This document shows, one piece after another, positions 10,392-56,978 of a DNA stretch of 64,000 bases. The stretch comes from Nodosilinea sp. LVE1205-7 (GTDB taxonomy: Bacteria; Cyanobacteriota; Cyanobacteriia; Phormidesmidales; Phormidesmidaceae). Every line of letters starts with the position of its first letter. The stretch's first letter is position 1. The notes under the pieces are model-generated. The model saw only the letters and a program-made list of their open reading frames with translations. It was not told the DNA's origin and did no database searches. The translations under genes were made by a program, and so were the position numbers. The DNA lies in NCBI GenBank assembly GCA_041879365.1, contig CP089923.1:1399095-1463094 (forward strand), written 5' to 3'.

Positions 10392-10623
10392 GCTGGTGTC
10401 AGCACAGGCTATGGCTGGCTAGCTTAATTAAATTCATTGAGTTCAGAAATGAACTGGGGCGCTGATTAAGGTTGCAGGTTCAAAGTTGCAGACTCCGCCC
10501 TAGATTCCATGAATGCAGTTCAACTCAACTGCTTAGGTAGCCTAACGGTCTATTGCCGCTGATTAATCTTGAGTTCGCTATAGTAAGTAGGGTAATTCTA
10601 ATCTGACTGCGGGGGCAGCCCCT

Positions 10624-22391: not shown

Positions 22392-22403
22392 CGGAGAAAA
22401 AAA

Positions 22404-22476
<73 letters not shown>

Positions 22477-24779: not shown

Positions 24780-25600
24780 AGCCTGGTCACTTACTATCGA
24801 TGGTTGGTGATTTATCAGGGGTAGGATGGGCAAAGGGCCTGAGCCCGTGCCCATCACCTGAGAGTGATCAGGCCAGGTTAAACCCTGACCTGGAGCTGGG
24901 CAGATCCTGGCTGCGATCGCGGGTGGCGGGGGTGCGATCGCAGTTGGTCGCTGGCTAGGGGGTATTGTTGGGCCTTGATGCTTAAGTTGGGGGTGGAAGG
25001 GTGGTAAGGTCTAATCTATTACGGGCAAGGGCTCCTGATCACTGATTACTGACCCCTGATTACTGTTTTTCTTACCGGGGGAATGGCGATTTCCCCCGGA
25101 CCCCCTCGCCCAGGGCGTGCCGCCGCCCTGGACCCGACGGAAGGGGTTAAAGGGTGGGCCGCCGATCGCGCTTCGCTTTGCTCTCAGCCTGTAGACCCCG
25201 GTTGCTTGAGGAGAAGCTTCCTATGGGTGGGAATCTGGGTGGTGCGGGCTCCTGATCACTGACTACTGATTCCTGACCACTCACTTCGCTTTGCTCTCAG
25301 CCTGTAGACCTGGGGAGGGGGCTACAGGCGCAGGGCGGATAGAGAAGTCTATCTAAGGGTGAGGGAGTTGGTGGCCAGGGCTTCTGACTACTGACCACTG
25401 ATTCCTGACCACTCACTTCATCGCGCTTCGTATTGCTCTCAGCTTGTAGACCTCTGCTGCTTAAGCAGGAATTTTGTCAGGGTGAGATAGGGGGTAGAGG
25501 GGACTCCTGATGACTGACCGCTGAAACGCTTGCGAATCGCTTGCTGACTGAGGGAGAGGGCTGCAAAACCGGATGCACCCAGACGTTCTCGCCAAAGCGA
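24780..25600. repeat. Left block of a composite repeat region: element A (~105 bp), double-hairpin element B, then ~130-150 bp satellite-like units containing STRR-like heptamer tracts
   Basis: 24812-24916 is repeated verbatim at 28421-28525. 25076-25200 (CCGGGGGAATGGCGATTTCCCCCGG…CCCAGGGCG…CGCCCTGG) is repeated at 28705-28830. The units CTCAGCCTGTAGACC–TGGGGAGGGGGCTACAGG–…–CTGACTACTGACCACTGATTCCTGACCACTCACTTC recur at 27660-27840 and 28830-29060. Confidence 0.6.
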
Positions 25601-25759
25601 TAGTTGCATTATGTCACTGACAGTGCCTAGCCTGTAGCAGTCTGGCAACAGTTACATCCAGGCCAGTGCGGCCGTCCTGGTCAAGTTTTTTAACTGCGCT
25701 GCCAAACCCATGGGTTTTCGAGATAGAGTACCCACCAGTGTCTAGCGCTTTTCCAGAAC

Positions 25760-27419
25760 ATGTTCAAACGCCATTCCTTCTGCCGTTTAGCAATTTTATC
25801 ACTGTCTGGAGTTCTGTTGGGTTCAGCCCTGGGGGCTCCAGGCTTAAGGGCAGAGGTAACCGTACTAGACAAAGCAGTCAGTCCAGCACTGCAGTCCCGG
25901 GTAAGTCCGATGGTGTCACCGGTACCCTTGCCGAGGCAGGCCCGTCGCTTTTCTCCTCCGAGTGGCGAAGAGAAGGCTGCCCAGTGGTTTGAAGCCCATC
26001 GCCAGCGTCCCACCTTGCTGCGGGCCTTCGTTCAGCGCATGCCAAAGGGCGGCGATATCCACAGCCATCTAAGTGGAGCAGTCTATGCCGAAGATTACCT
26101 GCGGTGGGCGGCGGCAGATGGATACTGTGTCGCCCCCCAGGGACCTGCCTTGGTGAAACCCAGCGCTTGCGGGCAGGATAGCAGTTACTTCCCAGCCTCT
26201 GAACTCTTCAACCGCACCGCTACCTACAATGCTCTGATTAACCTATGGTCTACCCGCAACCTACCCTTTGCCGGGCAGTCAGGCCATGATCGAATTTTTC
26301 GAGGCCTTCGCTGGTTTTTCTGACATCTCCTCAGAGTTGGCTCGTCAGGACGATATGGTAGCTTCCGTGGCTAATCGAGCCGCCAAGCAACACATTGCCT
26401 ACCTGGAACTGATGATGACCGTGAAGGGAAGTGAGGTGCGTCAGCTGGGCCGGACCGTAGGCTGGCAGGATAACTTTACCCAGATGCAGCGGCAGTTGAT
26501 GCAGGGCGGCCTGATGAATTTAGTGGCTGTCGGCGCTCAGGAGATGACGAAGCTTGAGGAACAGGTGGCTCAGAACCTGGGTTGTGGTACGGCGGCAGCT
26601 CAGCCAGGCTGTGGGGTGACGGTGCGGTATTTGCAGCAAACAACCCGTACCAAGGCTCCAGAGGAAGTGTTTGCCCAGTTTGTCTACGCCTTTGAGTTAG
26701 CCAAGGCCAGTGCCCAGGTGGTGGGTATCAATCTGGTGGCCCCAGAGGATCATCCGATTGCCCTGCGGGACTACACCCTGCAGATGGAAATGCTGGAGTT
26801 TCTGAAGAAGCAGTCTCCTGAGGTGAAGGTTTCCCTCCATGCCGGTGAGCTGGCGTTGGGTCTGGTGCCACCGGAGGAAATGACCTTTCACATCCGTCAG
26901 GCCGTAGAGCTAGCTCAGGCCAGCCGTATCGGCCATGGAGTCGCCATTCTCCACGAGCAGAACCCCTTTGAACTGATGGCGGAGATGGCTAAACGGGGGG
27001 TGTTGGTGGAAATTTGTTTGACCAGTAATGAGGTGATTCTTAATGTTGAGAAGGAGGAACATCCCTTTTTGGAGTACCAAGCCGCCGGTGTACCCCTGAC
27101 CCTGGCTTCCGATGATGAGGGCATATCCCGGATTGACCTGAGTAATGAGTACTTGCTTGCCGCCCTGCGCTACGACCTGCGCTACCCAGAGCTGAAAAAG
27201 CTGGTCCGCAACAGTTTGGAGCATAGCTTTCTGGAGGGGGATAGTCTGTGGCAATCGCCCCAGTTCGCTGCCGTGACAGCGGTCTGTGCCAAGGATGAGC
27301 CTGGGACTCAGGCCCTTTCTCCTGGCTGTGCTAGCTTTCTGGCCCAGAGCGATCGGGCCCGGGTCCAGTGGCAGTTAGAAAGGGACTTTGCTGAGTTTGA
27401 GAACCTCTCCTGGTTCTAA
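25760..27419 (+). CDS. Adenosine deaminase family protein with an N-terminal signal peptide (secreted/periplasmic ADA-like); frameshift at a T5 run (26295-26299)
   Basis: Signal peptide LAILSLSGVLLGSALGAPGLRA. The metal-binding motif GGDIHSHLSGAV, SLHAGE, a later GHG and the C-terminal half match the adenosine/AMP deaminase fold. T5 to T6 gives the continuous read HDRIFFEAFAGF. Confidence 0.8.
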
Positions 27420-27483
27420 GGATGGCTGCTTAGTGGTGCGGAAAAGTCCTGAAAGTACTGATATTCGGGAGAGTGATTAGAAT

Positions 27484-27628
27484 TTTGTGTAAACCCTGGT
27501 TTTGGCAACTAAAAATCAATGGTTTCAGCCTGATCTGGCAATGTTTTCTGAACACTCCCGCTGGTTCCCATTTTGCTATCCTGTTTCCAGGACGTTTCAA
27601 TTTCTAACTAAATCCCCGTTTACACAAA
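27484..27628. mobile_element. MITE family B copy 1 (TIR TTTTGTGTAAAC)
   Basis: 145 bp bounded by TTTTGTGTAAAC / GTTTACACAAAA. A near-identical copy at 36386-36676 carries a nested insertion. Confidence 0.5.
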
Positions 27629-27644
27629 AATCCGAACAGTCCCC

Positions 27645-27840
27645 TTCTGATTACTGACCACTGATTCCTGACCACTCACTTCATCGCGCCTCTCAGCTTG
27701 TAGACCTGGGGAGGGGGCTACAGGCACAGGGCGCAGGACGCAAGGCGGATAGAGAAGTCTATCTAAGGGTGAGGGAGTTGGTGGCCAGGGCTTCTGACTA
27801 CTGACCACTGATAACTGACCACTCACTTCGCTGATTACGG
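27645..27840. repeat. One satellite-like unit with heptamer (STRR-like) tracts, same family as in the flanking blocks
   Basis: …CTGATTACTGACCACTGATTCCTGACCACTCACTTC…CTCAGCTTGTAGACCTGGGGAGGGGGCTACAGG…GGATAGAGAAGTCTATCTAAGGGTGAGGGAGTTGGTGGCCAGGG…. Confidence 0.55.
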
Positions 27841-27845
27841 TTTTT

Positions 27846-27860
27846 AGGGCAATTTGCCCT
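27846..27860. promoter_or_regulatory. 15 bp perfect palindrome AGGGCAATTTGCCCT at the head of the tandem-repeat locus
   Basis: AGGGCAA-T-TTGCCCT. A related AGGGCACCTTTGCCCT occurs at 63538-63553. Confidence 0.3.
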
Positions 27861-27878
27861 AAAAACCTTAAGGTTTCA

Positions 27879-28070
27879 TCTATGCATATGTCGATCACCA
27901 TTAAGCACATTCTAAACACACGCGTGCAACTGTTGTTGTAGTCTATGTGCATAAAGAGCACCATTGAGCGCATCCTAAACACAGGGTGTGATCGTTAAAA
28001 ATGCGCCAAAAACCACTGTTTTGATCTATGTGTATGGCGATCACCATTGAGTGCATGCTAAACACAGGCC
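27879..28070. repeat. Three tandem copies of a ~64-82 bp repeat (TCTATG…GATCACCATT(A/G)AG(C/T)(A/G)CAT(T/C/G)CTAAACACA…)
   Basis: Copies start at 27879, 27943 and 28025. The 3' end of each copy (…CACAGG(G/C)(T/C)TGTGATCG…) seeds the following 21 bp array. Confidence 0.6.
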
Positions 28071-28343
28071 TGTGATCGATGTTTGCACGCCTGTGATCGT
28101 TATACACACCCGTGTGATCGATGTGCGCAGCGGTGTGATCGTTATACACAGGCGTGTGATCGATATGCGCACGGGTGTGATCGTTAAGCACAGCCGTGTG
28201 ATCGATATGCGCAGCGGTGTGATCGGTATGTACAGCCGTGTGATCGATGGTTGCAGGGGTGTGATCGTTAAACACACCCCTGTGATCGCTGTTGGCGGAG
28301 GTGAAATCGGTGTGTACAGCCCTGCGATCGCGGTTGGTCACCG
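28071..28343. repeat. Array of 13 perfectly phased 21 bp direct repeats, consensus TGTGATCG(A/T)T(A/G)T(G/A)C(G/A)CA(G/C)(C/G)(C/G)G
   Basis: Unit starts at 28071 + 21n (n = 0-12). Units alternate between two sub-types (…CGATGTGCGCAGCGG / …CGTTATACACAGGCG), giving a 42 bp super-period. Four adjacent units (28092-28175) read TGTGATCGTTATACACA or TGTGATCGATGTGCGCA, resembling CRP-family TGTGA-N6-TCACA sites. Confidence 0.85.
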
Positions 28344-28379
28344 TCTGAGGAGTGTTGTTCTGCCTCAATGCTGAGCTTG

Positions 28380-29110
28380 GGGGTAAAAGCTTAGATACAG
28401 AGGTCTCCTAATCACAGCGGGGTAGGATGGGCAAAGGGCCTGAGCCCGTGCCCATCACCTGAGAGTGATCAGGCCAGGTTAAACCCTGACCTGGAGCTGG
28501 GCAGATCCTGGCTGCGATCGCTATGGGCCGGGGGGACATGGATGAAGCCATGGGGGAGACTACTCTTCCCGGCCCCCCATAGGGTGTTGTCTGGCTTTGA
28601 GCTTGAAGGGTGGATGCTTGAGGAGCAGCTTCCTGTGGGTGAAAATCTGCGTGTTAAGAGCTCCTGATCGCTGATTACTGACTACTGGATTACTATTTCT
28701 TTTGCCGGGGGAATGGCGATTTCCCCCGGACCCCCTCGCCCAGGGCGTTCCGCCGCCCTGGACCCGACGGAAGGGGTTAAAGGGTGGGTGGCCGATTGCG
28801 CTTCGCATTGGTCTCAGCTTGTAGGCCTGGGGGAGGGGGCTACAGGCGCAGGGCGCAGGGCGGATAGAGAAGTCTATCTAAGGGTGAGGGAGTTGGTGGC
28901 CAGGGCTTCTGACTACTGACGACTGATAACTGACTGCTGATTCCTGACCACTCACTTCATCGCCCTTCGCTTTGATCTCAGCCTGTAGACCTGGGGGAGG
29001 GGGCTACAGGCGCAGGGCGCAAGGCGGATAGAGAAGTCTATCTAACGGTGAGGGGGTCGGTGGCCAGGGATTCACCCTATAGAACCCGCGACTAGGATCG
29101 AGCTAAGGGC
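28380..29110. repeat. Right block of the composite repeat region (element A, spacer, element B, two satellite units); direct repeat of 24780-25450
   Basis: 28421-28525 is identical to 24812-24916. 28705-28830 matches 25076-25200. 28830-29060 holds two units of the CTCAGC(C/T)TGTAGACC…GGCTACAGG…CACTCACTTC family. Confidence 0.6.
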
Positions 29111-29480
29111 AATGGTTGGGGGGCTAGTTATATTGGGCCGGACACCAGTTGATCAGATGCCCAGTTCTTACTCAAGAATGACGCATCCATGAGCAAACCC
29201 GTACCATTGCTAAAGAAATCTTGAGTTACAGAGCAGCCAGGGCGCGGGGGTATTTATACTGAAACTTTCCACCTAAGATCCCCTATTCGGCATTTAGGCT
29301 GAATTTTTTCCACCTAAGATCCCTCCAGGGGTGTTTAGGCGGACAGATTTCCACCTAAGATTCCCTATAGGGGTATTAGACGGAAAATTTCCCTCTATTT
29401 AGTAGTTGGACTGAATTGGCAACAGTGATTTTGAGAAAACTGCTGGATTTAAACCAAAGCCAAGGGAGAACGTTTAGCTT

Positions 29481-30891
29481 ATGTCTTTTGGAAAGTTTGT
29501 CTTTATCCTCCTATTTTTCACGATTTTCGATCTTCCTACCAAAGCATTTGCCGCAGAACAGCCCGTCGCGAATCTTTCACGCATTTAACCAAAAATACAG
29601 TGAGGTTGACGACTTTGTTTGTACGCTTGCTGAGCAAGGGTATTCCCACATACAAATCTCACCCGCACAACAATCGAATCCTAACAACGTCAATTCTAAT
29701 CCAAATGCCCCTGTGAATGTATGGGCAGGGCGTTATCAGCCTGTTAGCTATAGGGTGATTGACGGATTAGGATCTGAGCAAGACTTAAAGACTCTAACTG
29801 ATAAAGCCCATAGCTGTAAGATTAAGGTGATTGCCGACGTGGTTTTTAATCACATGGCGAGCATGAATCAATATAGCTCTCTAACTAACTTCCCTGACTT
29901 TCCCGATCCAAATGCTAGAGATGTCAGGAAAAATGGGTCAACCTATTTTCACAAGCAATGTGACATCAACTACAATGATGGTAACAGATCCACGGAAGTA
30001 AATTGTTGGTTGGGAGGTGCTCTTCCCGATCTCAATCAAAACAATTCAACTGTTAAGCAGGTTCAGAAAGCGCATTTGCAGAAGCTGCTGGATCTGGGGA
30101 TTGATGGCTTTCGGTTTGATGCCGCTAAACATATGCCGCCAGAAGCTATTCAAGAGTACATTAGCTACATTAATCAAGCGAGTAATAATCAGGCATGGAA
30201 TTATCTTGAGGTGATTGAAGATAATGATACGAGTGCGACCAACTATAATTTCATTGCTGCTGTAGAAGACTTTGTTCTCTATAGCTCAATGAAAAATGCA
30301 TTTACCTTTGGTGGGGATCTGCGATCATTACGAGTCCCCGTTGCCATTAACGATTCACGTAGCGTAGTATTTGGGCGAAACCATGACCAGATTAAACGTT
30401 TGAATGATGACGCTCTAAATGCCTACGATGATGAAACAGATTCTTATCTGGCGACGGCTTATGTGTTGGCTAGGCAGCAGGGCACTCCATTAATATTTGG
30501 ACCAGACAATTTAGTTCCTTATATTCCTGCTGGAGTCAAGTTTCGTCGGATCATGCATGAGAGAGGGAAGGAAGGTCGTAACGTAAAAGATAATGTTTTG
30601 CAGGTACCTGATAGTAAAACCGTCTTAATGATGGAACGGGGTAGCGAAGGATTCTTTGTTGTTAATAAGGGATTGGATAAATTTAATGTTCAGGTTATGG
30701 ACTTGACGCTCACTAATTTAGAGGGGTGTTACAGAGAACTACGAAATAACTTTACCGTCGCAATTGAGAGGAGGGCTAACAATAAGAAGTTTGTCACTCG
30801 GTGGGGAACGTGGGATCGCGGTGGGATGGAAGTTCAAGGTCGAGATGCAATATACTTCATTCGTGAACCATTTAATCAATGTGCGAAATAA
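29481..30891 (+). CDS. Secreted alpha-amylase family (GH13) protein; signal peptide is in a different frame from the catalytic domain
   Basis: GH13 conserved regions DVVFNHM and GFRFDAAKHM are present. A signal peptide MSFGKFVFILLFFTIFDLPTKAFAAEQ (29481-) reads in the +1 frame relative to the main ORF (29416-30891), so an indel near 29560 is implied. Confidence 0.7.
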
Positions 30892-31300
30892 ATAGCTGTG
30901 TTATGGCGGCTCCTGGACTAATGAGGTGTGGCCAGCCCCTTACTAGTAAGGATTTCGCGCTGGAGGATGTACCTCACTCGGACAAGAACTGCTATATAAC
31001 CAGCCGCCCAACACTGCGCTGCAACGGACGAAATCGAGTCTTGATGAGAATGCCAAAATTACTTGCTGCCGTTGAGCTTCACCGTTAGACCGCTGAATTG
31101 TCGGTTGGAGCAGTACTTGAAGCTTATCTGTTTGTTAAACTGTTTCAGTGTTCGATTGCGGAGTGTGCGAAAGTTCTTGTTTGAAACATAAAGTCTAACT
31201 ACTAAACGTTATCAATTAAGCACGTCTTAAATTCTTAAGTCTCCCAAGCACTTTAGCTAGCAATCAAAGTTAATGTTTAACGAACCTAGAAAAACTTTAG

Positions 31301-32695
31301 ATGCTTATGTATAAAGCCCTTCCAACAATCATATTTTTAAGTTCTGTTACTGCTGTGTTGTCTCTTATTGTATGGTTGTTGGGCACATGGCTTAAATTTA
31401 ATTATTTAACATCCTTACTAATCTTCACTGGCTTATTTTTGCTCATCCTATACTCTGTAGGCTCAATCAGAATAATTAATCAAGGAAACGAAGGTTTAAT
31501 AGAGCGGTTAGGGCGTTATCATCGCAAACTTGTACCGGGTTTGAACTTTATTATTCCATTTATGGACACGATTGTTTTAGAAGAAAGCACTCGTGAGAGA
31601 GTTTTTGATATAACTCCACATCTGACTATCACAAAAGATGGGGTTCCTCTAGAAATAGGTGTTGTTGTTTTTTGGCGAATCCTACAACTTGAAAGGACTT
31701 ATTATAGCATTGAGGATATTGAGGAGGGCTTAAGAAATATTATAGTTAATTCTCTTCGATTTAAAGTTGGCAGATTTGAATTGGAAAAAGTATTTTCTTT
31801 GAGAGATGACATAAGTTATAGTCTTTTAGCAATCTTAGATGATGCCACTGCTACTTGGGGAATTAAAATTACACGTATCGAAGTAGGAGATATTCTTCTC
31901 GCCAAAGCAGTGTTAGGTGAAAATTCCGACACCATTGAATTCAGCTTCCACAATGGGATCGATTGGGAAGCTTTTAGATATTCATTCAACTTGACGATTG
32001 AAAATGAAGGAGTGGAACTCAGCATTCAAGGTATAGAAGATAGAGGTGATGGAGTCCTTGTAGTTAAAGTTAGGGTTCCTTCTAACGTAAATAAAGCACA
32101 AATTTACAAAGACTTTACTACAAATTATGAAACAGCTTTTAAGGAATTGGAAGCTAGATACAGTGCTGAATTAAAAGCTAAGGAAGGTGAGATTGCAATC
32201 TACCGTGAACAAAGTTCAAGTATGTGGACGGTAATAAATTCATTGGCAAACCGACCTATAAATGTACAAGCAATTGCAAAAGCTATGAACGAAAGTACGG
32301 ATCAGAGTCAAAATATCAACATTGGTGGCAATGTCACTGGATCAACTATCAATTTGGGGGAAATCAGTGGTAGTGTTTCAAATACAGTTGCTCAATTGCC
32401 AAGTTCTCCAGATCCCAATCAACCTGGTGTAAAGGAACTACTGAGTCAGCTCCAAGAGATTATTGAGCAAGAGAAAGAACTATCATCTGAAGACAAAGCA
32501 GATCTGTTGGAGCAAGTTAAAGCTTTGGCAGAAGTGCAACAAGCTCCTGAGCAAAACCAGAAAGAAGGATTGGCACGGAAAGCCAAAAAGATGTTTGAAG
32601 CGACTTTGAAGAGTTTACCTGAAACTGCCAAAATTGTAGATGCTAGTGCTAAATTACTGCCTATGATCTTAAAGTTGCTAGGATTGCCAGTATAA
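31301..32695 (+). CDS. SPFH/band-7 (stomatin/prohibitin-like) membrane protein with a ~150 aa C-terminal extension
   Basis: Two N-terminal TM helices, then an SPFH core (…IINQGNEGLIERLGRYHRKLVPGLNFIIPFMDTIVLEESTRERVFDITPH…). The extension (NINIGGNVTGSTINLGEISGSVSN…KADLLEQVKALAEVQQ…KKMFEATLKSLPETAKIVDASAKLLPMILKLLGL) resembles N-terminal adaptor domains of cyanobacterial STAND/CHAT-type proteins. Confidence 0.75.
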   Translation: MLMYKALPTIIFLSSVTAVLSLIVWLLGTWLKFNYLTSLLIFTGLFLLILYSVGSIRIINQGNEGLIERLGRYHRKLVPGLNFIIPFMDTIVLEESTRERVFDITPHLTITKDGVPLEIGVVVFWRILQLERTYYSIEDIEEGLRNIIVNSLRFKVGRFELEKVFSLRDDISYSLLAILDDATATWGIKITRIEVGDILLAKAVLGENSDTIEFSFHNGIDWEAFRYSFNLTIENEGVELSIQGIEDRGDGVLVVKVRVPSNVNKAQIYKDFTTNYETAFKELEARYSAELKAKEGEIAIYREQSSSMWTVINSLANRPINVQAIAKAMNESTDQSQNINIGGNVTGSTINLGEISGSVSNTVAQLPSSPDPNQPGVKELLSQLQEIIEQEKELSSEDKADLLEQVKALAEVQQAPEQNQKEGLARKAKKMFEATLKSLPETAKIVDASAKLLPMILKLLGLPV

Positions 32696-32882
32696 GAAGT
32701 TTTTGAAGTTGTCATAGTCAATTAGGTTAAGTGCGCGGTCTAACAATTCAAATGCAGCGGACAGACTGAAATGCTTTCTGCTTCGTTTCGAGTCCTATGC
32801 TGCCGCTGATTTGAGCCGTTAGCAATCCACGGCGCTTCACACCTTCAGGGTGAAAGTAACTAGCTCTCGCCAATAAGTATAT

Positions 32883-34433
32883 ATGCTCATCATGTATAAC
32901 TCAGACAATTCAAGAGATAGAGCACTAGTAAGTACAATCTTCTCTGGAAAAGTGAAGTCTATGGTTAATCAATTAAGAGAGATGAACTATCAACACAGGG
33001 AGCTATACAGCCGTATTCAGGCATTTTCTTTAGATCAACCAAATACTCAGTTATTGTTTCACAAGCGATTGGCTAGGGATAATGGTTGGTCGATAGGCTA
33101 TGCTCAGAGAGTGATTGAGGAATATAAAAAGTTTGTATTTCTAGCTGTTGCAGCAGGTCATCCTGTCACGCCATCCGATCAAGTTGATCAAGTTTGGCAT
33201 TTGCATTTGACTTATACACGATCGTACTGGCAAGAGTTCTGCCCCAAAATTTTGCAGACCACATTACATCATGATCCAACTCGTGGAGGTTCATCCGAGC
33301 AATTAAAATTTGACAACTGGTATAGCAAAACACTAGAGAGTTACCAACAGTTTTTTGGACAGATTCCTCCAATTGACATTTGGCCCAAACCTAAAGACCG
33401 ATTTGGGCGCGATTTACATTTTATCCGGATCAACACTCAAGAAAATTGGGTTTTGACAAAACCCAATTTCAAAATCTCCTTCAAACCACAACTGCAACAA
33501 GGAGTAACCTTTTCCTTTTTATTTGTGCTTGCGCTTGTTGTAACTAGCTGTCAAGTAATCTCCCAAATTCCTAACCCAATCAATTTTACAGGTTCGGAAT
33601 TTTTAACGTTCTATATTTCGATAGCAGTGATAGGAATTGCTTTGGCTACCTGGCTACGTTTTTCTCTTCGCTTGCCTAACGGGATCACAAATAAACACCC
33701 TGATTTAAATGCTTACGAGATAGCTTTCTTAGCTGGCGGCAATAATCGCATGATTATGACTGCGATCACCAGTTTAGTAAAACAAGGCTATGTAGAGGTA
33801 GCAAAAGAAAAACTACCATCTTTTATTGGTAGCATAACGCAAAGAAAACTGGCTTTGAGAACAAGTATTGATAATATTACTGACCCTGTAGAAAAGGCAG
33901 TTGCACAAAATATTTTCACAACTGATGGAGGAATTGAACAGGTCTTGCAGAAATCCACAGTAGTGGAGGATAGTATTCGCTCCCGCCTACAACAATTGAG
34001 CTTGTTTCTAAGTAATGATCAGGCAGTCAAAGCACAACTTTATCCATCGTTGATTGTACTTATTCTCTTAGGGCTAGGCTTATGTAAAGTATTTGTCGGA
34101 ATTTCTCGCGATAAGCCAGTTGGTTTTCTTTTGATGTGTATGTGGGTGCTTCTAGTTTTGGGATCAAGGTTTTTTGTAAAACCATATCGTAGCCGTTATG
34201 GAGATCGCATTTTTAATGATTTAACAAATCGCTCACAAGACTTAAAAACAGCCAATAGCAGCGATTCTAAGCTTCCACTTGCGGTTGCGTTGTTTGGAGC
34301 AACAGTTCTGACAGCCGATAGTGCTTTAGCAGATTTGCATCAAATGTTGGTTTCTACAGCTGGTGGTGGCGGCGATGGCGGCGATGGTGGCGGTTGCGGT
34401 GGTGGCGGTTGTGGTGGATGCGGTGGTGGTTGA
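32883..34433 (+). CDS. Fusion of a DUF1399 (glycine-rich-domain protein, GRDP-like) N-terminal domain with a TIGR04222-like membrane domain ending in a Gly/Cys tail
   Basis: The N-terminus (LFHKRLARDNGWSIGYAQRVIEEYKKFVFLAVAAGHPVTPSDQVDQVWHLHLTYTRSYW) matches the DUF1399 core. Several TM helices follow, and the gene ends AGGGGDGGDGGGCGGGGCGGCGGG*. Confidence 0.55.
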   Translation: MLIMYNSDNSRDRALVSTIFSGKVKSMVNQLREMNYQHRELYSRIQAFSLDQPNTQLLFHKRLARDNGWSIGYAQRVIEEYKKFVFLAVAAGHPVTPSDQVDQVWHLHLTYTRSYWQEFCPKILQTTLHHDPTRGGSSEQLKFDNWYSKTLESYQQFFGQIPPIDIWPKPKDRFGRDLHFIRINTQENWVLTKPNFKISFKPQLQQGVTFSFLFVLALVVTSCQVISQIPNPINFTGSEFLTFYISIAVIGIALATWLRFSLRLPNGITNKHPDLNAYEIAFLAGGNNRMIMTAITSLVKQGYVEVAKEKLPSFIGSITQRKLALRTSIDNITDPVEKAVAQNIFTTDGGIEQVLQKSTVVEDSIRSRLQQLSLFLSNDQAVKAQLYPSLIVLILLGLGLCKVFVGISRDKPVGFLLMCMWVLLVLGSRFFVKPYRSRYGDRIFNDLTNRSQDLKTANSSDSKLPLAVALFGATVLTADSALADLHQMLVSTAGGGGDGGDGGGCGGGGCGGCGGG

Positions 34434-34906
34434 TTGAAAACCGTCTAACATTCGCTTGGAGCGGACTGACGAAAATCCTTAGTTTATTGTAGAGATTGTT
34501 AGCAGCCTCTCAAGTGGAGCGTTACCCACGAAGGTCCGCCTAAAGTCATGGGGAGACAGGCCCGCGATCGCCCACCGAACGGGGGTATTGACTGCCTTAA
34601 CTGGGATATTGGCCGAGGAGCAGCGATCGCCCCACCAATACAGCTCCTGGGGCTAGGGCTATTGCCAAGACTTAGCCCCACGGCACCGGAGATCGCAGCA
34701 GAACCCCCCGCCACCCATGAGTCACCCCACACAGCGGATACCTTCGGCCCCCTCAGACCTGGTCACCTTAAACTCACCTGAAGGCCGCACAGCCCTGCTG
34801 GATCACTGGTTGACGCTGTGGCTAGAGCGCCTGAACAACACGCCTTCTCTACCCAGCCCTTTATCGATGCTGCCCAGCAACGCCTCTGGGAACTAGCAGA
34901 GTAAAG

Positions 34907-36189
34907 TGTACCCCGTTGTCTAGACAGTTAGGGTAGGAATTTAAAGTAGAGTCGCCATTTAGTTCATTTTCTTTCTCTACGTCTCTTTTTTACATCACTA
35001 TCCTCCTGCTTACTGAAGTAGACACTGGCTGGCGGCCTATAGTTCAGTGACTGGTGTAGCCGCTCCTGGTTATAAAACCGAAAATAACGCTCCAGATTCT
35101 CAATGGCACTTGAAACACTGTCGTAGTCTTTGAGGTAGACCTCTTCGTACTTGACGGTACGCCACAGCCGTTCCACGAAAATGTTATCAAAAGCCCGGCC
35201 CTTGCCGTCTTGAGAAATTTGGATCGCTCGCCCCTCTAACGCCCCTGTAAAGGCCAGGCTGGTAAATTGACTGCCCTGATCTGAGTTAAAGATCGTAGGC
35301 TGACTGACCTGCAGCGCCTCCTCCAGGGCCACCAAACAAAAATGCACATCCATGGTATTCGATAGCTGCCAGGACAGTACATAACGGCTGTACCAGTCCA
35401 TCACCGCTACCAAATACACAAACCCATTCGCCAGCCGAATATAGGTAATATCCGTGCTCCACACCAGATCGGGGCGGTCAATACACAGCCCCCTCAGCAA
35501 GTAGGGATACCGGCGAGCGTTGTCCCCAGCTATCGTTGTCCGGGGCTTCGGATAGATCGCCTGAATCCCCATCTGACGCATGATCCGCGCCACCCGCTTA
35601 TGATTGACCGCCTCGCCCTGTTGTCTCAACCAGGCGGTCATTCGGCGCACCCCGTAAAACGGCGTCGCCGTGTATTGTTCGTCTATTCGTTCCATCAGAT
35701 GTAACTCGTAAGGGTCAATCGCCACTGGTTCGTAGTACCAGCTAGACCGCGCCAGCTCTAGTAACTCACATTGTCGACGGATACTCAGCTGAGGATGCTC
35801 TGGCTCCACCAGCCGTCGTTTATTCGCCAGCGGTAAGGCCAGATTTTTTTTCAACCAGTCCACTTCTACCTTCAGTTGACCGATTTGTTGATAAAGTTGG
35901 GCGGTTAGCTCTTCCTGGTCTTTACGGCCCTGGGCTCGCCGTGACGAAAAAATGCCAGGAAGCTCATCGAGCACCTGCTTCTTCCATTGGTTGATCTGGC
36001 TGGCATGGACGCCATACTCACTCGATAGTTCGTTCACAGTTTTTAGCCCCTTGATGGCCTCTAGAGCCACCTTAGCCTTGAAGTCCGCACCATGTCGCTT
36101 GCGCTGCATTTCCCTGTTGATCTCCGTATAGCTACTGAATTGCTGGGCAGCGACTCTATCTTATTTCCCTGTACAGTTTCCGGGGTACA
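34907..36189 (-). mobile_element. IS3-family insertion sequence (1283 bp) with terminal inverted repeats TGTACCCCG…
   Basis: The left end TGTACCCCGTTG… matches the reverse complement of the right end …CCGGGGTACA, and both ends carry AGAGTCGC. Encodes an OrfAB-type transposase. Confidence 0.8.
34964..36109 (-). CDS. IS3-family transposase (HTH OrfA part fused in-frame to the DDE integrase-core OrfB part)
   Basis: 381 aa: HTH region (…ALEAIKGLKTVNELSSEYGVHASQINQWKK…), leucine-zipper-like segment, then an rve/DDE core (…WSTDITYIRL…NSDQGSQFTS…). An A8 run (35855-35862) sits exactly where IS3 elements carry their -1 frameshift window. Confidence 0.85.
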   Translation of the reverse strand: MQRKRHGADFKAKVALEAIKGLKTVNELSSEYGVHASQINQWKKQVLDELPGIFSSRRAQGRKDQEELTAQLYQQIGQLKVEVDWLKKNLALPLANKRRLVEPEHPQLSIRRQCELLELARSSWYYEPVAIDPYELHLMERIDEQYTATPFYGVRRMTAWLRQQGEAVNHKRVARIMRQMGIQAIYPKPRTTIAGDNARRYPYLLRGLCIDRPDLVWSTDITYIRLANGFVYLVAVMDWYSRYVLSWQLSNTMDVHFCLVALEEALQVSQPTIFNSDQGSQFTSLAFTGALEGRAIQISQDGKGRAFDNIFVERLWRTVKYEEVYLKDYDSVSSAIENLERYFRFYNQERLHQSLNYRPPASVYFSKQEDSDVKKRRRERK

Positions 36190-36385
36190 TCATAGAGGAA
36201 GACGCTCTGGAATTGGGTGCAGCGGACTACGATTACGTCCGATCGTGGATATCAGAGTCGCTAGAGAGGCGGCACCTGGCCCAAACCTACAACGACGACA
36301 AAAAACGCGTCCAACGGAAGGCGGTGAGCCACCGATGACGCGAGTTGTCTCTTATTTCAAGACCTTCGGTGGAGAGTGATCAGAA

Positions 36386-36676
36386 TTTTGTGTAAACCCT
36401 GGTTTTGGCAACCAGAAATCAATGATTTCAGCCTGATCTGGCAATGTTTTCTGAACGGGTGCATCCCACTTTTGTAGCCCTCACCCTAAATCCCTCTCCC
36501 AAGGCGGGAGAGGAATTTAGAATCCGGCTCCCCTTCTCCCAAAAAGGGAGAAGGGGCTGGGGGATGAGGGCAAACTTGCAAAACTGGGATGCACTCTTCT
36601 GAACACTCCCGCTGTTTCCCATTTTGCTATCCTGTTTCCAGGACGTTTCAATTTCTGACCAAATCCCCGTTTACCT
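36386..36676. mobile_element. MITE family B copy 2, carrying a nested 140 bp insertion and truncated at its right TIR by MITE A copy 2
   Basis: Collinear with 27484-27628 except for the inserted block 36457-36596. The right end stops at GTTTAC, where MITE A (GGTTGACTGACAAAAC) begins. Confidence 0.5.
36457..36596. mobile_element. MITE family D nested inside MITE B, flanked by an 8 bp target-site duplication TTCTGAAC
   Basis: TTCTGAAC occurs once in the uninterrupted copy 1 (…GTTTTCTGAACACTCCCG…) and twice here (36449-36456 and 36597-36604), flanking an element with TIRs GGGTGCATCCCA…TGGGATGCACTC. Confidence 0.6.
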
Positions 36677-37819: not shown

Positions 37820-37891
37820 AGCCGATGGCGGGATTTGAACCCGCGACCGCTCGATTACGAATCGAGTGCTCTACCACTGAGCCACATCGGC
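37820..37891 (-). tRNA. tRNA-Thr (anticodon CGT)
   Basis: Reverse complement GCCGATGTGGCTCAGTGGTAGAGCACTCGATTCGTAATCGAGCGGTCGCGGGTTCAAATCCCGCCATCGGCT; anticodon loop TTCGTAA. Confidence 0.85.
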
Positions 37892-39234: not shown

Positions 39235-41025
39235 ATGGTTTCCAGTTCCTCTCTCCATCCACTCGAGCGCTTGCTACGCTATGGCCGCCGCTATCGCTAT
39301 CGAATCTGGCAGGCCAGTCTATGCTCGGTGCTAAATAAAACCTTTGACCTGGCACCCCCCGTCTTGATTGGCCTGGCCGTAGATGTTGTGGTTAAGCAGC
39401 AAAATTCCTGGATTGCCGGATGGGGAGTGAGTTCAATTGCCGCTCAGTTTACTGTGCTAGCGGTCCTAACCCTGGTGATCTGGGGTTTAGAGTCTTTATT
39501 TGAATACGCCTACGATGTGTTGTGGCGTAATCTGGCCCAATCTATTCAAAAGGATTTGCGTATTGATGCCTATGCCCACTTGCAAGGCTTGGATATGGTT
39601 TATTTTGAGGATCGCAGTAGTGGTCGGCTGATGGCCATTTTGAATGATGACATCAACCAACTAGAGCGGTTTCTAGACCGGGGTGCCAATGAGGTTTTGC
39701 AGGTCATTACAACGGTGATTTTGATCGGAGGTGCCTTTTTCCTGCTAGCACCAGGGGTGGCCTGGTGGGCCATGCTGCCCATGCCCTTAATTATCTGGGG
39801 GCGATCGCCTTTCAACGCCTGCTGGCCCCTCGCTACGCTCAGGTGCGAGAGCAGGTAGGCTTACTCAACGGTCGGCTGGCCAATAATTTGGCTGGCATGA
39901 TGACCATTAAAAGTTTTACCGCTGAGAATTACGAAATTGAGCGGGTCAGTGCAGAAAGCGAAGCCTACCGCCTCAGTAACCAGCGAGCGATCGCCTTAAG
40001 TGCCCTATTTATCCCCCTGATTCGGGTGTTAATTTTATTTGGCTTTACCGCCACCCTAGTTTACGGGGGCCTGGCTACGGTAGCTGGCCATCTAGCGGTG
40101 GGTACCTACAGTGTACTGGTATTCATTACCCAGCGGTTGCTCTGGCCCCTTACCCGGTTAGGGGAAACCCTGGATCAATATCAACGGGCTATGGCTTCAA
40201 CCCAGCGGGTTTTAGATCTACTGGATACCCCCATAGCCATTTGCCCTGGTCAACAGCGCCTGGCTGCCAGCCAGATTCAGGGCAACATTCAGTTCGAGGC
40301 GGTGAGCTTTACCTACCCCAATCGAGAGCCTGTTATTCAGCGTTTAAATCTATCTATACCAGCCGGGCAAACCATTGCCATTGTGGGGTCAACGGGGTCT
40401 GGCAAAAGTACCCTGGTAAAGCTGCTGTTGCGTTTTTATGAGGTTGGTGAGGGTCGGATTACTCTAGATGGCCTGGATATTAGAGACCTTAACCCTGAGG
40501 ACCTCCGGCGGGCGATTGGCCTGGTCAGTCAGGATGTGTTTTTATTCCACGGCACCGTGGCGGAAAATATTGCCTACGGTAGCTTTGCGGCCAGTCCTGA
40601 AGCGATCGCTTGGGCGGCCCAAATGGCAGAGGCTGACGGGTTTATTCAGGCCTTACCTCAGGGCTACCATACCCTGGTGGGGGAGCGGGGTCAAAAGCTT
40701 TCGGGAGGGCAGCGCCAGCGGCTGGCGATCGCCCGGGCTATTCTCAAAAACCCGCCGATTCTGGTCCTGGATGAGGCCACCTCGGCGGTGGATAACGAAA
40801 CCGAGGCGGCGATCCAGCGATCCCTGAGAAAAAATCACCCAAAACCGTACTACCATTGCCATTGCCCATCGCCTTTCCACCGTCCGTAATGCTCACTGCA
40901 TTTACGTTATGGAAGCAGGTCAGCTGGTGGAAGCCGGTACCCACGAAGAGCTCCTGACCCAGCAGGGACTCTATGCCAGCCTGTGGCAAATTCAAATGGG
41001 AGGACGGGCCGGTAAGCAATTCTAG
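39235..41025 (+). CDS. ABC exporter, fused permease and ATPase (MsbA/type-1 exporter-like); two frameshifts (G5 run 39796-39800; A6 run near 40832)
   Basis: Six-TM domain followed by an NBD with Walker [10 protein letters not shown], signature [14 protein letters not shown] and Walker [13 protein letters not shown]. The C-terminus (…[35 protein letters not shown]…) is read in another frame. Confidence 0.85.
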
Positions 41026-52473: not shown

Positions 52474-53814
52474 TCAGCGGGTTGACCTGGGCTGGTGATC
52501 GCTGACCACCTGGGGAGGAGGAAAGGGCATCACTAAAATCTTATCGACCCTGGGACCATCCATATCCATAACTTCAAAGCGTAGTCCCTCCCACTCAAAG
52601 TGTTCGCCGGATTGGGGAATATAACCCAGGTAGTGCATGATAAATCCTCCCAGGGTGTGGAAGTTGCCGGTTTCCTCCTCAGGTAGGGTACGCTTTCTAA
52701 ATAAATCCTTGAGGTCATTAATATCAAGGGAGCCGTCCAACAACCAGGAACCATCCTCCCGCTGAATGACCAGGGGCTCCTCTTGATCTTCTACGGAAGG
52801 TAAATCGCCCACAATGGCCTCCATCAAGTCATTCAGAGTGACTAATCCCTCAATACCCCCATACTCATCAATCACCAGGGCGATGTGAATACCGGTTTGC
52901 TTGAACTGTTCTATGATGCTCAGGGCCCGGGCATTTTCAGCCACATAAAGGGGGGGCTGGGTAAGGGTTTCCAGGTCAAAGGCTTGGGCCGATAGTTGAG
53001 CCACTAAGATATTACTGCCCCGAATAATACCCACACAGTCATCCAGGCTGCCCCGTCCTACCGGAAAACGAGAGTGGTTACTGGTCATCACCTCTTGGAG
53101 AGTTTCCGCCAGGGTAGCTTGGGTATCTAGCCAGGTGATTTCCGTACGAGGAGTCATCATGGCCTTGATGGGGCGATCGCCCAGGCGAAATACCCGTTCT
53201 ACCATTTCATGTTCCGCCTCCTCAAACATGCCTGATTCTGCCCCTTGCCGAATCAAAACCTTAATTTCTTCCTCAGTAATATCAGGTTCTTGAGAAGCCT
53301 CAATCGCCATAATTTTTAGCAAGGTATCGGTAGAAAGACCAAGAATATGAACAAAGGGAGCGGTCAATCGAGCCAGATATCGCATCGGCGGAGCAACGAT
53401 GCAGGCAATTTGTTCCGGGTCATTGAGGGCAATACGTTTGGGTACCAGTTCTCCCACCACCAGGGAAAGATAGGTAATAATCGATACTACAACCCCGACG
53501 CTAATCCCTTCGCTGTAGGGCTCTAGAGCTGGAATGCCATCGAGAAGAGGTTTCAGTCTCTGGGCAATGGTTGCTCCTCCCACCGCCCCACTAAGAATGC
53601 CAATCAGGGTAATACCTATTTGTACTGTGGCCAAAAAATTATTGGGGGAGTTGGCCAGCTTTAAAGCAACATGGGCCCGATGATTTCCCCGATCTACCAA
53701 CTGCTCTAATCGAACTTTGCGGGCCGATACCACTGCAATTTCTGATCCTGAAAAGATGCCGTTTGCAATAATGAGTAAAAAGATGATCAGAATTTCAGAA
53801 TAAATTGATGCCAT
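52474..53814 (-). CDS. HlyC/CorC (CNNM) family transporter: DUF21 membrane domain, CBS pair and CorC_HlyC domain
   Basis: 446 aa with an N-terminal 4-TM DUF21, two CBS motifs and a C-terminal transporter-associated domain. Confidence 0.8.
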   Translation of the reverse strand: MASIYSEILIIFLLIIANGIFSGSEIAVVSARKVRLEQLVDRGNHRAHVALKLANSPNNFLATVQIGITLIGILSGAVGGATIAQRLKPLLDGIPALEPYSEGISVGVVVSIITYLSLVVGELVPKRIALNDPEQIACIVAPPMRYLARLTAPFVHILGLSTDTLLKIMAIEASQEPDITEEEIKVLIRQGAESGMFEEAEHEMVERVFRLGDRPIKAMMTPRTEITWLDTQATLAETLQEVMTSNHSRFPVGRGSLDDCVGIIRGSNILVAQLSAQAFDLETLTQPPLYVAENARALSIIEQFKQTGIHIALVIDEYGGIEGLVTLNDLMEAIVGDLPSVEDQEEPLVIQREDGSWLLDGSLDINDLKDLFRKRTLPEEETGNFHTLGGFIMHYLGYIPQSGEHFEWEGLRFEVMDMDGPRVDKILVMPFPPPQVVSDHQPRSTR

Positions 53815-54296: not shown

Positions 54297-54310
54297 AACG
54301 GTTTCGTAAA

Positions 54311-55413: not shown

Positions 55414-56978
<1,565 letters not shown>

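What the first reader, a model, noticed from the sequence alone, without database searches (positions are those of the whole stretch)
29416..34530. AT-rich, HIP1-free island encoding a secreted GH13 amylase, an SPFH protein with an adaptor-like tail and a DUF1399/TIGR04222 fusion: likely horizontally acquired
Base composition drops sharply and visibly across this ~5 kb, with long A/T tracts. The GCGATCGC octamer, frequent in the flanking DNA, does not occur once. The island is bounded upstream by the repeat block and downstream by an IS3 element and nested MITEs. Normal composition with HIP1 resumes at about 34530, in what looks like the 3' remnant of a disrupted host gene (…FIDAAQQRLWELAE*, 34790-34905). 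The three proteins do not form a known operon. The SPFH protein carries a C-terminal domain (…NINIGGNVTGSTINLGEISGSVSN… followed by a Lys/Glu-rich helix ending LLPMILKLLGL) that, to my recollection, is normally an N-terminal adaptor of cyanobacterial STAND/CHAT/TIR conflict-system proteins. That hints at a defence or conflict role for the island.
Basis: partly seen in the sequence, partly recalled or inferred. Interest (0 to 1): 0.65.

Follow-up and report, generated by a model that had tools for sequence, protein, structure and literature searches.

The report
Three integron gene cassettes in a cyanobacterium
The AT-rich stretch is real foreign DNA: three single-gene integron cassettes, each ending in a classic attC recombination site, sit in a Nodosilinea-like cyanobacterial chromosome with no integrase gene nearby, which is a known kind of element and not a new defence island.

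Summary
GC is 0.40 across 29250-34440 against 0.53 elsewhere, about 11 SD below any other 5-kb window. There is no HIP1 for 6 kb, although a longer HIP1 gap occurs elsewhere at normal GC.

The three genes are a GH13 amylase, an SPFH protein with an added C-terminal module, and a TIGR04222 membrane protein. Each is followed by an 85-87 bp imperfect palindrome with the same layout as class 1 integron attC sites. These lie at 31006-31090, 32738-32824 and 34443-34527. A rule-based scan finds exactly these three in 64 kb, where 0.013 are expected.

Near-identical copies (94-98% DNA identity) of each gene block occur singly in unrelated metagenomic contexts. For two of them the similarity stops at the attC crossover point (G|TT). 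One of those contigs is itself a cassette array.

Horizontal acquisition is supported and the mechanism can now be named. The defence reading is not supported: PADLOC found nothing for the SPFH or TIGR04222 proteins, and the genes are not linked elsewhere. The tail is a C-terminal module, fused mostly to pentapeptide-repeat proteins. DUF1399 was not detected.

The parts
29382..31084 (+). Cassette 1: secreted-type GH13 alpha-amylase gene plus attC_1. The left end is uncertain, somewhere between about 29250 and 29382.
   Evidence: 93.9% nucleotide identity to L049 588-2292, ending at GTTA of the attC R' core. PF00128. The amylase is 100% identical to a Nodosilinea sp. LVE1205-7 protein.
29481..30891 (+). 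Amylase coding region. ATG 29481 encodes a Sec-type signal peptide. A 1-nt insertion at 29571 shifts the frame, so the catalytic part reads in the frame of the listed ORF 29416-30891.
   Evidence: The GH13 motifs GFRFDAAKH, EVIED and NHD are invariant in the alignment.
31006..31090 (+). attC_1 (85 bp): GCCCAAC-ACT-GCGCT[G]CAACGG-AC...CCGTTG-AGCTT-CACC-GTTAGAC. Crossover at G31084|T31085.
   Evidence: Rule-based scan, geometry table, covariation. The bottom strand folds as a hairpin.
31085..32818 (+). Cassette 2: SPFH protein with an added C-terminal module, plus attC_2.
   Evidence: Bounded by the R' cores of attC_1 and attC_2. The inner block 31200-32745 is 98.4% identical to L012/L013, which have unrelated GC-rich flanks.
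31301..32695 (+). SPFH chimera gene (464 aa). It has two N-terminal helices, an SPFH domain (aa 56-200), a small alpha/beta domain (211-258), a long helix (265-316), a disordered Gly/Asn/Ser linker (324-347) and a five-helix bundle (352-459).
   Evidence: Pfam, BLASTP comparisons, AlphaFold model with pLDDT 89.6, Foldseek hits to QmcA, stomatin and HflK/C.
32738..32824 (+). attC_2 (87 bp): GTCTAAC-AATT-CAAAT[G]CAGCGG-AC...CCGCTG-ATTTG-AGCC-GTTAGCA. Crossover at G32818|T32819.
   Evidence: Fold -21.1 kcal/mol, z -2.6. The first 12 nt are identical to the aadA2 attC, and the L box is nearly identical to the lnu(F) attC.
32819..34521 (+). Cassette 3: TIGR04222 / UCP032817-like membrane protein plus attC_3.
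   Evidence: 32888-34524 is 97% identical to L007 and 86% to L008/L009. In L007 and L008 the shared block starts at G|TTAGAC and G|TTAGAA. In all three contexts it ends at G|TTA.
32883..34433 (+). TIGR04222 protein ORF. The likely true start is ATG 32961. It has a Gly/Cys-rich C-terminal tail.
   Evidence: TIGR04222 2e-50 over aa 243-476. The closest named relatives are Microcystis proteins at 71-75%.
34443..34527 (+). attC_3 (85 bp): GTCTAAC-ATT-CGCTT[G]GAGCGG-AC...CCTCTC-AAGTG-GAGC-GTTACCC. Crossover at G34521|T34522. GC-rich host DNA with HIP1 resumes immediately after it.
   Evidence: The L007 copy pairs 11/11 in the L box.
29266..29393 (+). Three 41-nt direct repeats (TTTCCACCTAAGAT...) upstream of the amylase gene. 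The same decamer recurs in the opposite orientation upstream of the L049 copy. Their role is unknown.
34907..36175 (-). IS3-family insertion sequence 380 bp to the right of the array. It is not part of the cassettes.
   Evidence: HTH_21, rve and rve_3 domains. The ends were read from the sequence.
27468..27644 (+). MITE copy directly after the adenosine-deaminase gene. A second copy at 36371-36674 is interrupted by another small element at 36457-36596.
   Evidence: Repeat families D5 and D6 (95-96% identity) and inverted repeats I1 and I2.

Best explanation
The island is a short array of three integron-type gene cassettes with no integron integrase nearby. This is a CALIN (cluster of attC sites lacking an integron integrase), sitting in the chromosome of a Nodosilinea-like cyanobacterium.

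Each cassette is one gene followed by an attC site. By the established integron mechanism, the attC bottom strand folds into an imperfect hairpin: R box, unpaired spacer, L box with an extrahelical base, then a variable loop. An IntI tyrosine recombinase cuts it between G and TT of the R' core. This lets a cassette be excised as a circle and re-inserted at attI, at another attC, or at a loose genomic GWT site.

Shown here:
- the three sites have attC architecture;
- they are arranged head to tail;
- there is no integrase in the 64 kb window;
- the same cassettes occur elsewhere;
- for cassettes 1 and 3, similarity to those copies ends exactly at G|TT.

Inferred:
- the cassettes arrived by integrase action, supplied in trans or since lost, or the array was separated from its integron by the MITE, IS3 and repeat rearrangements that surround it;
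- they come from low-GC donors;
- without a Pc promoter they may be poorly expressed. The amylase gene is frameshifted in this assembly.
For: 1. A scan was written from the layout of class 1 attC sites: RYYYAAC, GAC at +22/23, a 10-nt L box with a one-base bulge, then GTT. It hits exactly 31006-31090, 32738-32824 and 34443-34527. All are on the + strand, and each lies 10-116 nt after a stop codon. 0.013 hits per window are expected from 300 Markov simulations. The same scan recovers attC sites of aadA2, aac(6')-Ib4 and aac(6')-IIc in real class 1 integrons.

2. The geometry is identical in 15 sites from the window, the metagenomic contigs and the plasmids.

3. Covariation: 85.7% of cells pair, against 69.2% after shuffling. 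There are 44 double-change cells against 18, and the score is 0.456 against 0.145 (0/500 shuffles reach it). Sliding the partner by +/-1 drops pairing to about 40%. Eight of 11 L-box pairs show compensatory changes.

4. Independent contexts:
- The amylase block is 93.9% identical to L049 and stops at GTTA of R'.
- The TIGR04222 block is 97% identical to L007 and 86% to L008/L009. Similarity stops at G|TTA, followed by three different sequences.
- L007 carries at least 5 same-strand attC sites, each lying just downstream of a called gene or gene pair, including toxin-antitoxin-like pairs.
- The SPFH block is 98.4% identical to L012/L013.

5. No IntI-like coding sequence was found in the window. 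The tblastn query was an IntI1 sequence verified as 100% identical to plasmid intI1.

6. No promoter-like excess in the island (11 sites against 12.2 expected, none just upstream of the ORFs).

7. Integrons, CALINs and a cyanobacterial attC model are documented (PMC4889954, PMC8352920). Cassette insertion outside att sites is also documented (10.1101/2022.09.11.507474).
Against: - The attC scan was written by me after I had seen the sites, so it is not fully independent. IntegronFinder's attC covariance model could not be run.
- The R' cores of attC_2 (GTTAGCA) and attC_3 (GTTACCC) match GTTRRRY at only 5 of 7 positions. The last six bases do belong to the neighbouring DNA by design.
- The bulged base is G on the top strand in all three window sites. 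It is C in the five class 1 sites examined.
- The window's version of attC_3 does not come out as the minimum-energy fold.
- Similarity of the SPFH block to L012/L013 stops at the R'' core (32745) and starts at 31200, not at the predicted cassette ends.
- No attC, attI or integrase was found left of cassette 1.
- At about 1.7 kb, the cassettes are larger than most described cassettes (from my own knowledge).
Confidence: 0.85

Rival explanations
1. It is a generic genomic island brought in by another route: IS3/MITE-mediated transposition, or homologous recombination after transformation. On this view the palindromes after each gene are just transcription terminators or host repeats.
For: Two direct copies of one MITE (27468-27644 and 36371-36674) bracket the whole 9-kb region. 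An IS3 element lies 380 bp to the right. No integrase is present.
Against: The palindromes have no T-tract and were not picked up as terminators. They share RYYYAAC...GAC...GTT spacing and L-box covariation with genuine attC sites. They occur only after these three genes in 64 kb. Breakpoints with other contexts fall at G|TT, not at MITE or IS ends. Each gene travels alone elsewhere, not as a 5-kb unit.
Confidence: 0.07
2. It is a defence or conflict island. The SPFH protein with an adaptor-like tail and the TIGR04222 protein would act together, or singly, against phage or competitors.
For: Integron cassettes are reported to be rich in anti-phage systems (10.1101/2024.07.02.601686). The tail module occurs rarely on CHAT, nSTAND1 and Roc-COR proteins (1 each of 105). 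Homologues of the SPFH chimera and of the TIGR04222 protein often sit beside toxin-antitoxin genes.
Confidence: 0.06
3. It is an assembly chimera: low-GC DNA from another organism joined into a metagenome-assembled chromosome at repeats.
For: The source appears to be a MAG. Several genes in the window are frameshifted, namely the adenosine deaminase, two ABC transporters and the amylase. This suggests an error-prone assembly. The island is flanked by repeats.
Against: The right junction is not in a repeat. It falls exactly at the attC_3 crossover, G|TTACCC, with HIP1-rich DNA starting about 40 bp later. Cassettes 1-2 and 2-3 are joined at attC cores, as an integrase would join them. Low-GC copies of the same cassettes sit inside GC-rich DNA in independent assemblies, L007 and L012.
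Confidence: 0.02

Closest known systems
CALIN (cluster of attC sites lacking an integron integrase), as defined by Cury et al. 2016 (PMC4889954)
   Same: At least two attC sites within 4 kb on one strand. Single-gene cassettes lie head to tail in the attC orientation. No intI is nearby. The cargo is non-resistance genes of mostly unknown function. Transposable elements are close by.
   Different: The host is a filamentous cyanobacterium of the Nodosilinea/Leptolyngbya type. The cassettes are long, about 1.7 kb. The extrahelical base is G rather than C on the top strand. The first cassette has no recognisable left-hand att site.
attC sites of class 1 integron cassettes: aadA2, lnu(F), aac(6')-Ib4, aac(6')-IIc, ereA2
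   Same: Same layout: R'' (7) - spacer (3-4) - L'' (5 + bulge + 6) - AC - loop - L' (11) - spacer (3-4) - R' (7). attC_2 shares GTCTAACAATTC with the aadA2 attC. It shares AAATxCAGCGGAC...CCGCTGATTT with the lnu(F) attC.
   Different: The loops are longer (39-40 nt against 12-26). The bulged base differs. No integrase, attI or Pc promoter is associated.
Isolated cassettes inserted at genomic attG sites (SALIN; Loot et al., 10.1101/2022.09.11.507474)
   Same: The right end of the array joins host-like DNA directly at G|TT with no partner attC, as expected for insertion at a GWT site. Single copies of the same cassettes lie in non-array contexts (L049, L008, L012).
   Different: Here three cassettes are together. 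Insertion at a genomic site is inferred, not shown, and no empty site was recovered.
Stomatin/paraslipin-type SPFH proteins (QmcA, HflK/C, stomatin)
   Same: An N-terminal membrane anchor and an SPFH domain with 59% identity to cyanobacterial stomatin-like proteins over aa 41-205, followed by a long helix.
   Different: From aa 210 the sequence is replaced by a 255-aa module. That module is otherwise found at the C-terminus of about 700-aa pentapeptide-repeat membrane proteins, at 55-62% identity.

Membership tests
Integron attC site / gene cassette | Inverse core R'' = RYYYAAC at the 5' end and core R' = GTTRRRY at the 3' end | tested here: met
   R'' is GCCCAAC, GTCTAAC and GTCTAAC (3/3 exact). 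R' is GTTAGAC (exact), GTTAGCA and GTTACCC (5/7 each). The six bases after G come from the neighbouring DNA by the mechanism.
Integron attC site / gene cassette | Imperfect palindrome of 57-141 bp: R box, unpaired central spacer, L box with extrahelical base(s), variable loop | tested here: met
   Lengths are 85, 87 and 85 bp. The L box pairs 10/11, 11/11 and 10/11, with one bulged base at the same position as in five class 1 attC sites. Covariation is well above the shuffled and slid controls. The bulged base is G, not C, on the top strand.
Integron attC site / gene cassette | Score above threshold with the curated attC covariance model (IntegronFinder) | not testable with these tools
   The model is not available here. 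My own rule-based scan gave 3 hits against 0.013 expected and recovered 3 known class 1 attC sites.
Integron attC site / gene cassette | A mobile unit of one ORF plus attC, found in different contexts with the junction at G|TT of R' | tested here: met
   Cassette 1 against L049: similarity ends at GTTA. Cassette 3 against L007, L008 and L009: it starts at G|TTAGAC or G|TTAGAA and ends at G|TTA. Cassette 2 against L012/L013: the breakpoints lie at 31200 and 32745, inside the predicted cassette, so this one is not met.
CALIN | At least 2 attC sites clustered (<4 kb apart) with no integron integrase nearby | tested here: met
   Three sites are spaced about 1.7 kb apart. tblastn with verified IntI1 found nothing in the 64-kb window at E <= 10. 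The rest of the genome could not be examined.
Complete integron | intI gene with adjacent attI and Pc promoter upstream of the first cassette | tested here: not met
   No IntI-like ORF. Left of cassette 1 there are only repeats and a MITE. No attC-like site lies upstream.
Known anti-phage defence systems (PADLOC-DB v2) | Significant match of a component protein to a defence-system model | tested here: not met
   There is no hit for the SPFH chimera or the TIGR04222 protein. The amylase hits only a generic GlgB-like model.
   The match ends at the C-terminus in 150 of 150 best representatives. Pfam partners in 105 of them: 38 pentapeptide, 6 Band_7, and 1 each of CHAT, nSTAND1, COR-B, LRR and GNAT. 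No TIR was found.
SPFH / Band 7 (PF01145) | SPFH alpha/beta domain after an N-terminal membrane anchor | tested here: met
   PF01145 1.5e-27 over aa 58-204. The model matches QmcA, stomatin and HflK/C at E 1e-11 to 5e-14.
DUF1399 (PF07173) | Pfam HMM match in the N-terminal part of protein 3 | tested here: not met
   No Pfam family at E <= 0.1 for aa 27-230. Homologues are labelled PF27765, UCP032817-like.
TIGR04222 membrane protein | NCBIfam TIGR04222 above its cut-off | tested here: met
   171.6 bits against a cut-off of 43, over aa 243-476.
GH13 alpha-amylase | PF00128 catalytic domain with conserved regions II-IV (Asp nucleophile, Glu, His-Asp) | tested here: met
   PF00128 9.8e-15. GFRFDAAKH, EVIED and NHD are invariant among nine homologues. 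The gene is frameshifted after the signal peptide in this assembly.

The most novel reading that the evidence does not exclude
The SPFH chimera may be a membrane-scaffold effector of an undescribed conflict or stress system that travels as a single-gene integron cassette. Its C-terminal five-helix bundle is found at the end of at least 707 protein clusters. These include pentapeptide-repeat membrane proteins, many short stand-alone proteins, and rare CHAT, nSTAND1 and Roc-COR proteins. The bundle could be a homotypic docking module that links these proteins into one network.
Probability: 0.1. Interest if true: 0.6.

Novelty: new member of a known kind. Interest (0 to 1): 0.35.

Why it matters
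It replaces a vague 'foreign island' with a named, testable mechanism. It adds a documented case of integron cassettes moving among freshwater cyanobacteria and GC-rich bacteria. The same 1.7-kb cassettes occur at 94-98% identity in unrelated genomes, so integrase-mediated exchange is recent in these communities.

It also flags two cassette-borne proteins of unknown function: an SPFH chimera with a widely shared C-terminal bundle, and a TIGR04222 protein whose Microcystis relatives keep only half of the attC. These could be useful for studying what environmental cassettes do and how cassettes arise or decay.

None of this changes current understanding of integrons.

Tried and rejected
- Exact look-ups of the SPFH and TIGR04222 ORFs, and of the 100%-identical amylase, found nothing on record.
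- The orthologous-locus test was inconclusive as an empty-site comparison. Four related genomes share only the adenosine-deaminase gene (25582-27428) with the window, and synteny breaks at the MITE.
- I first considered that the array ran on the minus strand, because the SPFH block shared with L012 is flanked by GTCTAAC on both sides. I rejected this because no attC-like fold lies upstream of the gene, and the three downstream sites fit the + orientation.
- A loose palindrome scan was too noisy to use (17 hits per 20 kb in random sequence). A fixed-geometry scan still gave 3.8 per window by chance.
- A MAFFT alignment of whole attC sites put the 3' arms out of register, so arms-only sequences were used.
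- The metagenome scan with the SPFH protein returned no close full-length relative.
- Solved-structure sequence searches gave nothing for the tail module or protein 3.
- Pfam found nothing for the small GC-rich fragments at 34700-34905 and 36190-36340.
- Rfam found only four tRNAs.

Full report
**Observation**

The composition drop is real and sharp.
- GC is 0.404 over 29250-34440, against 0.532 for the rest of the window.
- No other 5.19-kb stretch falls below 0.507 (mean 0.530, sd 0.011).
- Third-position GC of the three genes is 0.29-0.41. In five flanking genes it is 0.45-0.72.

HIP1 (GCGATCGC) occurs 41 times in the window, where 0.5 are expected. It is absent from 28514 to 34564. That gap is not unique. 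A 9.2-kb gap at 53173-62420 has normal GC, and there is also a 5.2-kb gap. Composition is therefore the strong signal, and HIP1 absence only agrees with it.

- tandem and dispersed repeats at 27647-29073;
- an IS3-family element at about 34907-36175;
- a MITE at 36371-36674 that is split by a second small element at 36457-36596.

An intact copy of the same MITE lies at 27468-27644, directly after the adenosine-deaminase gene.

**The genes**

*Amylase.* ORF 29416-30891 carries the alpha-amylase catalytic domain (PF00128). The GH13 signature regions are invariant among homologues. Homologues begin with a Sec-type signal peptide. In the window that peptide is encoded from ATG 29481, but a one-base insertion at 29571 separates it from the enzyme frame. 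An identical protein is annotated in Nodosilinea sp. LVE1205-7 on a 3.79-Mb contig, which is probably the source genome.

*SPFH protein.* ORF 31301-32695 is an SPFH protein only up to about residue 205, with 59% identity to cyanobacterial stomatin-like proteins. Residues 210-464 are 55-62% identical to the C-terminal 255 residues of about 700-aa pentapeptide-repeat membrane proteins. Full-length relatives with the same fusion exist in other cyanobacteria at 41-58% identity.

*TIGR04222 protein.* ORF 32883-34433 matches TIGR04222. Its closest named relatives are Microcystis proteins at 71-75%. DUF1399 was not detected.

**The tail**

The last 147 residues were searched against 1.84 billion representatives. 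This gave 707 hits at E <= 0.001. In all 150 best hits, the match runs to the C-terminus of the protein.

Pfam domains were scanned in 105 of them:

| Partner domain | Proteins |
|---|---|
| Pentapeptide repeats | 38 |
| SPFH (Band_7) | 6 |
| CHAT | 1 |
| nSTAND1 | 1 |
| Roc-COR (COR-B) | 1 |
| LRR | 1 |
| GNAT | 1 |

Many are short proteins with no recognised domain.

AlphaFold models are confident (pLDDT 89.6 for the whole protein, 93.6 for the tail). They show the following parts:
- two N-terminal helices;
- the SPFH domain;
- a small alpha/beta domain;
- a 50-residue helix;
- a disordered Gly/Asn/Ser linker, which is the 'NINIGGNVTGS...' stretch;
- a compact five-helix bundle.

**No operon, no defence match**

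PADLOC has no model matching the SPFH or TIGR04222 proteins. I examined the contexts of seven homologues. These covered the SPFH chimera (three contexts), the TIGR04222 protein (three) and the amylase (one). In none of them are the three genes neighbours.

**What the island is**

Each gene block recurs on its own, nearly unchanged, in unrelated contigs:

| Window block | Matching contig | DNA identity | Context of the match |
|---|---|---|---|
| 31200-32745 (SPFH) | L012, L013 | 98.4% | different, GC-rich flanks |
| 32888-34524 (TIGR04222) | L007 | 97% | contig is 56% GC overall |
| 32888-34524 (TIGR04222) | L008, L009 | 86% | other contexts |
| 29382-31087 (amylase) | L049 | 93.9% | other context |

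The ends of these blocks drew attention to a repeated motif, GTCTAAC...GCGGAC, after the SPFH and TIGR04222 genes. Closer reading showed an 85-87 bp imperfect palindrome after all three genes.

For reference I fetched real class 1 integrons from plasmids. The search used IntI1, and the query proved 100% identical to annotated intI1. I then read their attC sites. The window's sites share the class 1 layout base for base:
- R'' core (RYYYAAC);
- 3-4 unpaired bases;
- five paired bases, one bulged base, six paired bases ending in G, then AC;
- a variable loop;
- the 11-base complement;
- 3-4 unpaired bases;
- R' core (GTT...).

attC_2 begins with the same 12 bases as the aadA2 attC. Its L box is almost that of the lnu(F) attC.

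A scan encoding this layout finds exactly three sites in the 64-kb window, where 0.013 are expected by chance:
- 31006-31090;
- 32738-32824;
- 34443-34527.

All three are on the + strand, 10-116 nt after a stop codon. The same scan recovers three of the known plasmid attC sites.

I aligned the arms of 14 sites and counted base pairs:
- 85.7% of cells pair, against 69.2% after shuffling.
- 44 cells carry compensatory double changes, against 18.
- The covariation score is 0.456 against 0.145 (0 of 500 shuffles reach it).
- Pairing collapses to about 40% if partners are slid by one column.

**Junctions**

The established integron mechanism places the crossover between G and TT of R'. Three observations fit this:
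- The amylase block shared with L049 ends at ...CACCGTTA. After that the two sequences differ.
- The TIGR04222 block ends at ...GCGTTA in the window, L007 and L008. It is then followed by CCC, TGC and ACA respectively.
- In L007 and L008 the same block begins at G|TTAGAC and G|TTAGAA.

In the window the first 65 bases of that cassette are much more diverged, but they are collinear with the others.

L007 is itself a cassette array. It has at least five same-strand attC sites, each lying just downstream of a called gene or gene pair. These include toxin-antitoxin-like pairs.

The SPFH cassette is the exception. Its similarity to L012/L013 runs only from 31200 to the R'' core at 32745. In L012 only the 5' arm of an attC follows, so that copy looks truncated.

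**No integrase**

tblastn with IntI1 finds nothing in the window. No attC-like site lies left of the amylase gene. By the published definition, this is a CALIN (PMC4889954). Integrons and chromosomal attC families are known in cyanobacteria (PMC4889954, PMC8352920). Integrase-mediated insertion of cassettes at loose genomic sites has been shown experimentally (10.1101/2022.09.11.507474).

I cannot tell which of these happened here:
- the array was split from an integron by the surrounding MITE, IS3 and repeat activity;
- the cassettes were inserted directly;
- an integrase is encoded elsewhere in the genome.

**Related genomes**

Four related species share the adenosine-deaminase gene at 90-93% DNA identity. 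There it is an intact 552-codon ORF. Their similarity to the window ends at 27428, about 40 bases before the MITE. The 10 kb downstream in two of them is conserved between those two genomes and contains none of the window's genes. The island is therefore absent there. Because synteny is broken, this is not a clean empty site.

**Function and expression**

No promoter-like excess is seen in the island, as expected for cassettes. The amylase is frameshifted in this assembly. Three other genes in the window are also split, so assembly error is as likely as decay.

Cassettes are reported to be rich in anti-phage genes (10.1101/2024.07.02.601686). A defence role for the SPFH chimera or the TIGR04222 protein therefore cannot be excluded, but nothing measured here supports it.

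**Verdict**

Horizontal origin is supported, and the mechanism is identified as integron cassettes. The defence reading is unsupported. This is a new member of a known kind of element and is of moderate interest.

Noticed in passing
L007:1-10621: This GC-rich (56%) metagenomic contig is an integron cassette array. It has at least five same-strand attC sites (61-127, 1775-1862, 7907-7998, 8735-8824, 10488-10572), each just downstream of a called gene or gene pair. These include a YopA-like protein and Gp49/HTH toxin-antitoxin-like pairs. Its last cassette is the 40%-GC TIGR04222 gene, 97% identical to the window's.
   Followed up: partly
L010:9440-9520 and L011 (Microcystis aeruginosa): The Microcystis chromosomal homologues of the TIGR04222 gene keep only the 3' half of attC_3 (TTAGCAGCCGCTCAA...GTTGAAC) and lack the 5' arm. 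This may be a decayed cassette, or a hint about where the cassette came from.
   Followed up: no
window 25760-27419, 19411-22433, 39235-40889, 29481-29640: Four genes are split by frameshifts: the adenosine deaminase, two ABC transporters and the amylase. The deaminase is one intact 552-codon ORF in relative L015. This points to indel errors in the assembly or to widespread pseudogenes.
   Followed up: partly
window 28017-28352: There are at least 11 tandem copies of a 21-nt unit (…GTGTGATCG…). They give open frames on both strands, with His/Thr/Asp-rich repeats on the minus strand. Nature unknown.
   Followed up: no
window 27647-29073: Dispersed repeats: a 115-nt unit in three copies (27680, 28795, 28959) and CTGA(C/T)TACTGACCACTGAT-type runs in four copies. 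They lie between the MITE and the cassettes.
   Followed up: no
window 29266-29393; L049:480-590: Three 41-nt direct repeats, each an internal hairpin (CCTAAG...TTTAGG), start with TTTCCACCTA. The reverse complement TAGGTGGAAA recurs upstream of the 94%-identical amylase copy in L049. They could be regulator binding sites that belong to the amylase cassette.
   Followed up: partly
window 27468-27644 and 36371-36674: Two direct copies (95-96% identical) of a 177-bp MITE with 27-nt terminal inverted repeats bracket the whole 9-kb variable region. The right copy is interrupted by a 140-bp element at 36457-36596.
   Followed up: partly
window 34907-36175: The IS3-family element has a single fused 381-aa transposase ORF. 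Read by eye, the flanks are AAG on the left and GTT on the right, so there is no obvious 3-bp target duplication. This would fit an IS-mediated rearrangement.
   Followed up: no
window 53173-62420: This is the longest HIP1-free stretch in the window (9.2 kb), yet GC is normal (0.47-0.58). HIP1 absence by itself does not mark foreign DNA here.
   Followed up: partly
window 32342-32692 (protein tail); P0241-P0383: The C-terminal five-helix bundle preceded by a Gly/Asn/Ser linker is a widespread, apparently unnamed module. It has 707 representative clusters, is always C-terminal and has no Pfam model in the copy searched. It is often the only recognisable part of 100-300-aa proteins.
   Followed up: partly
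window 37820-37891: A tRNA-Thr(CGT) gene on the minus strand lies 3.3 kb right of the array, beyond the IS3 and the MITEs. No integrase is associated with it.
   Followed up: no
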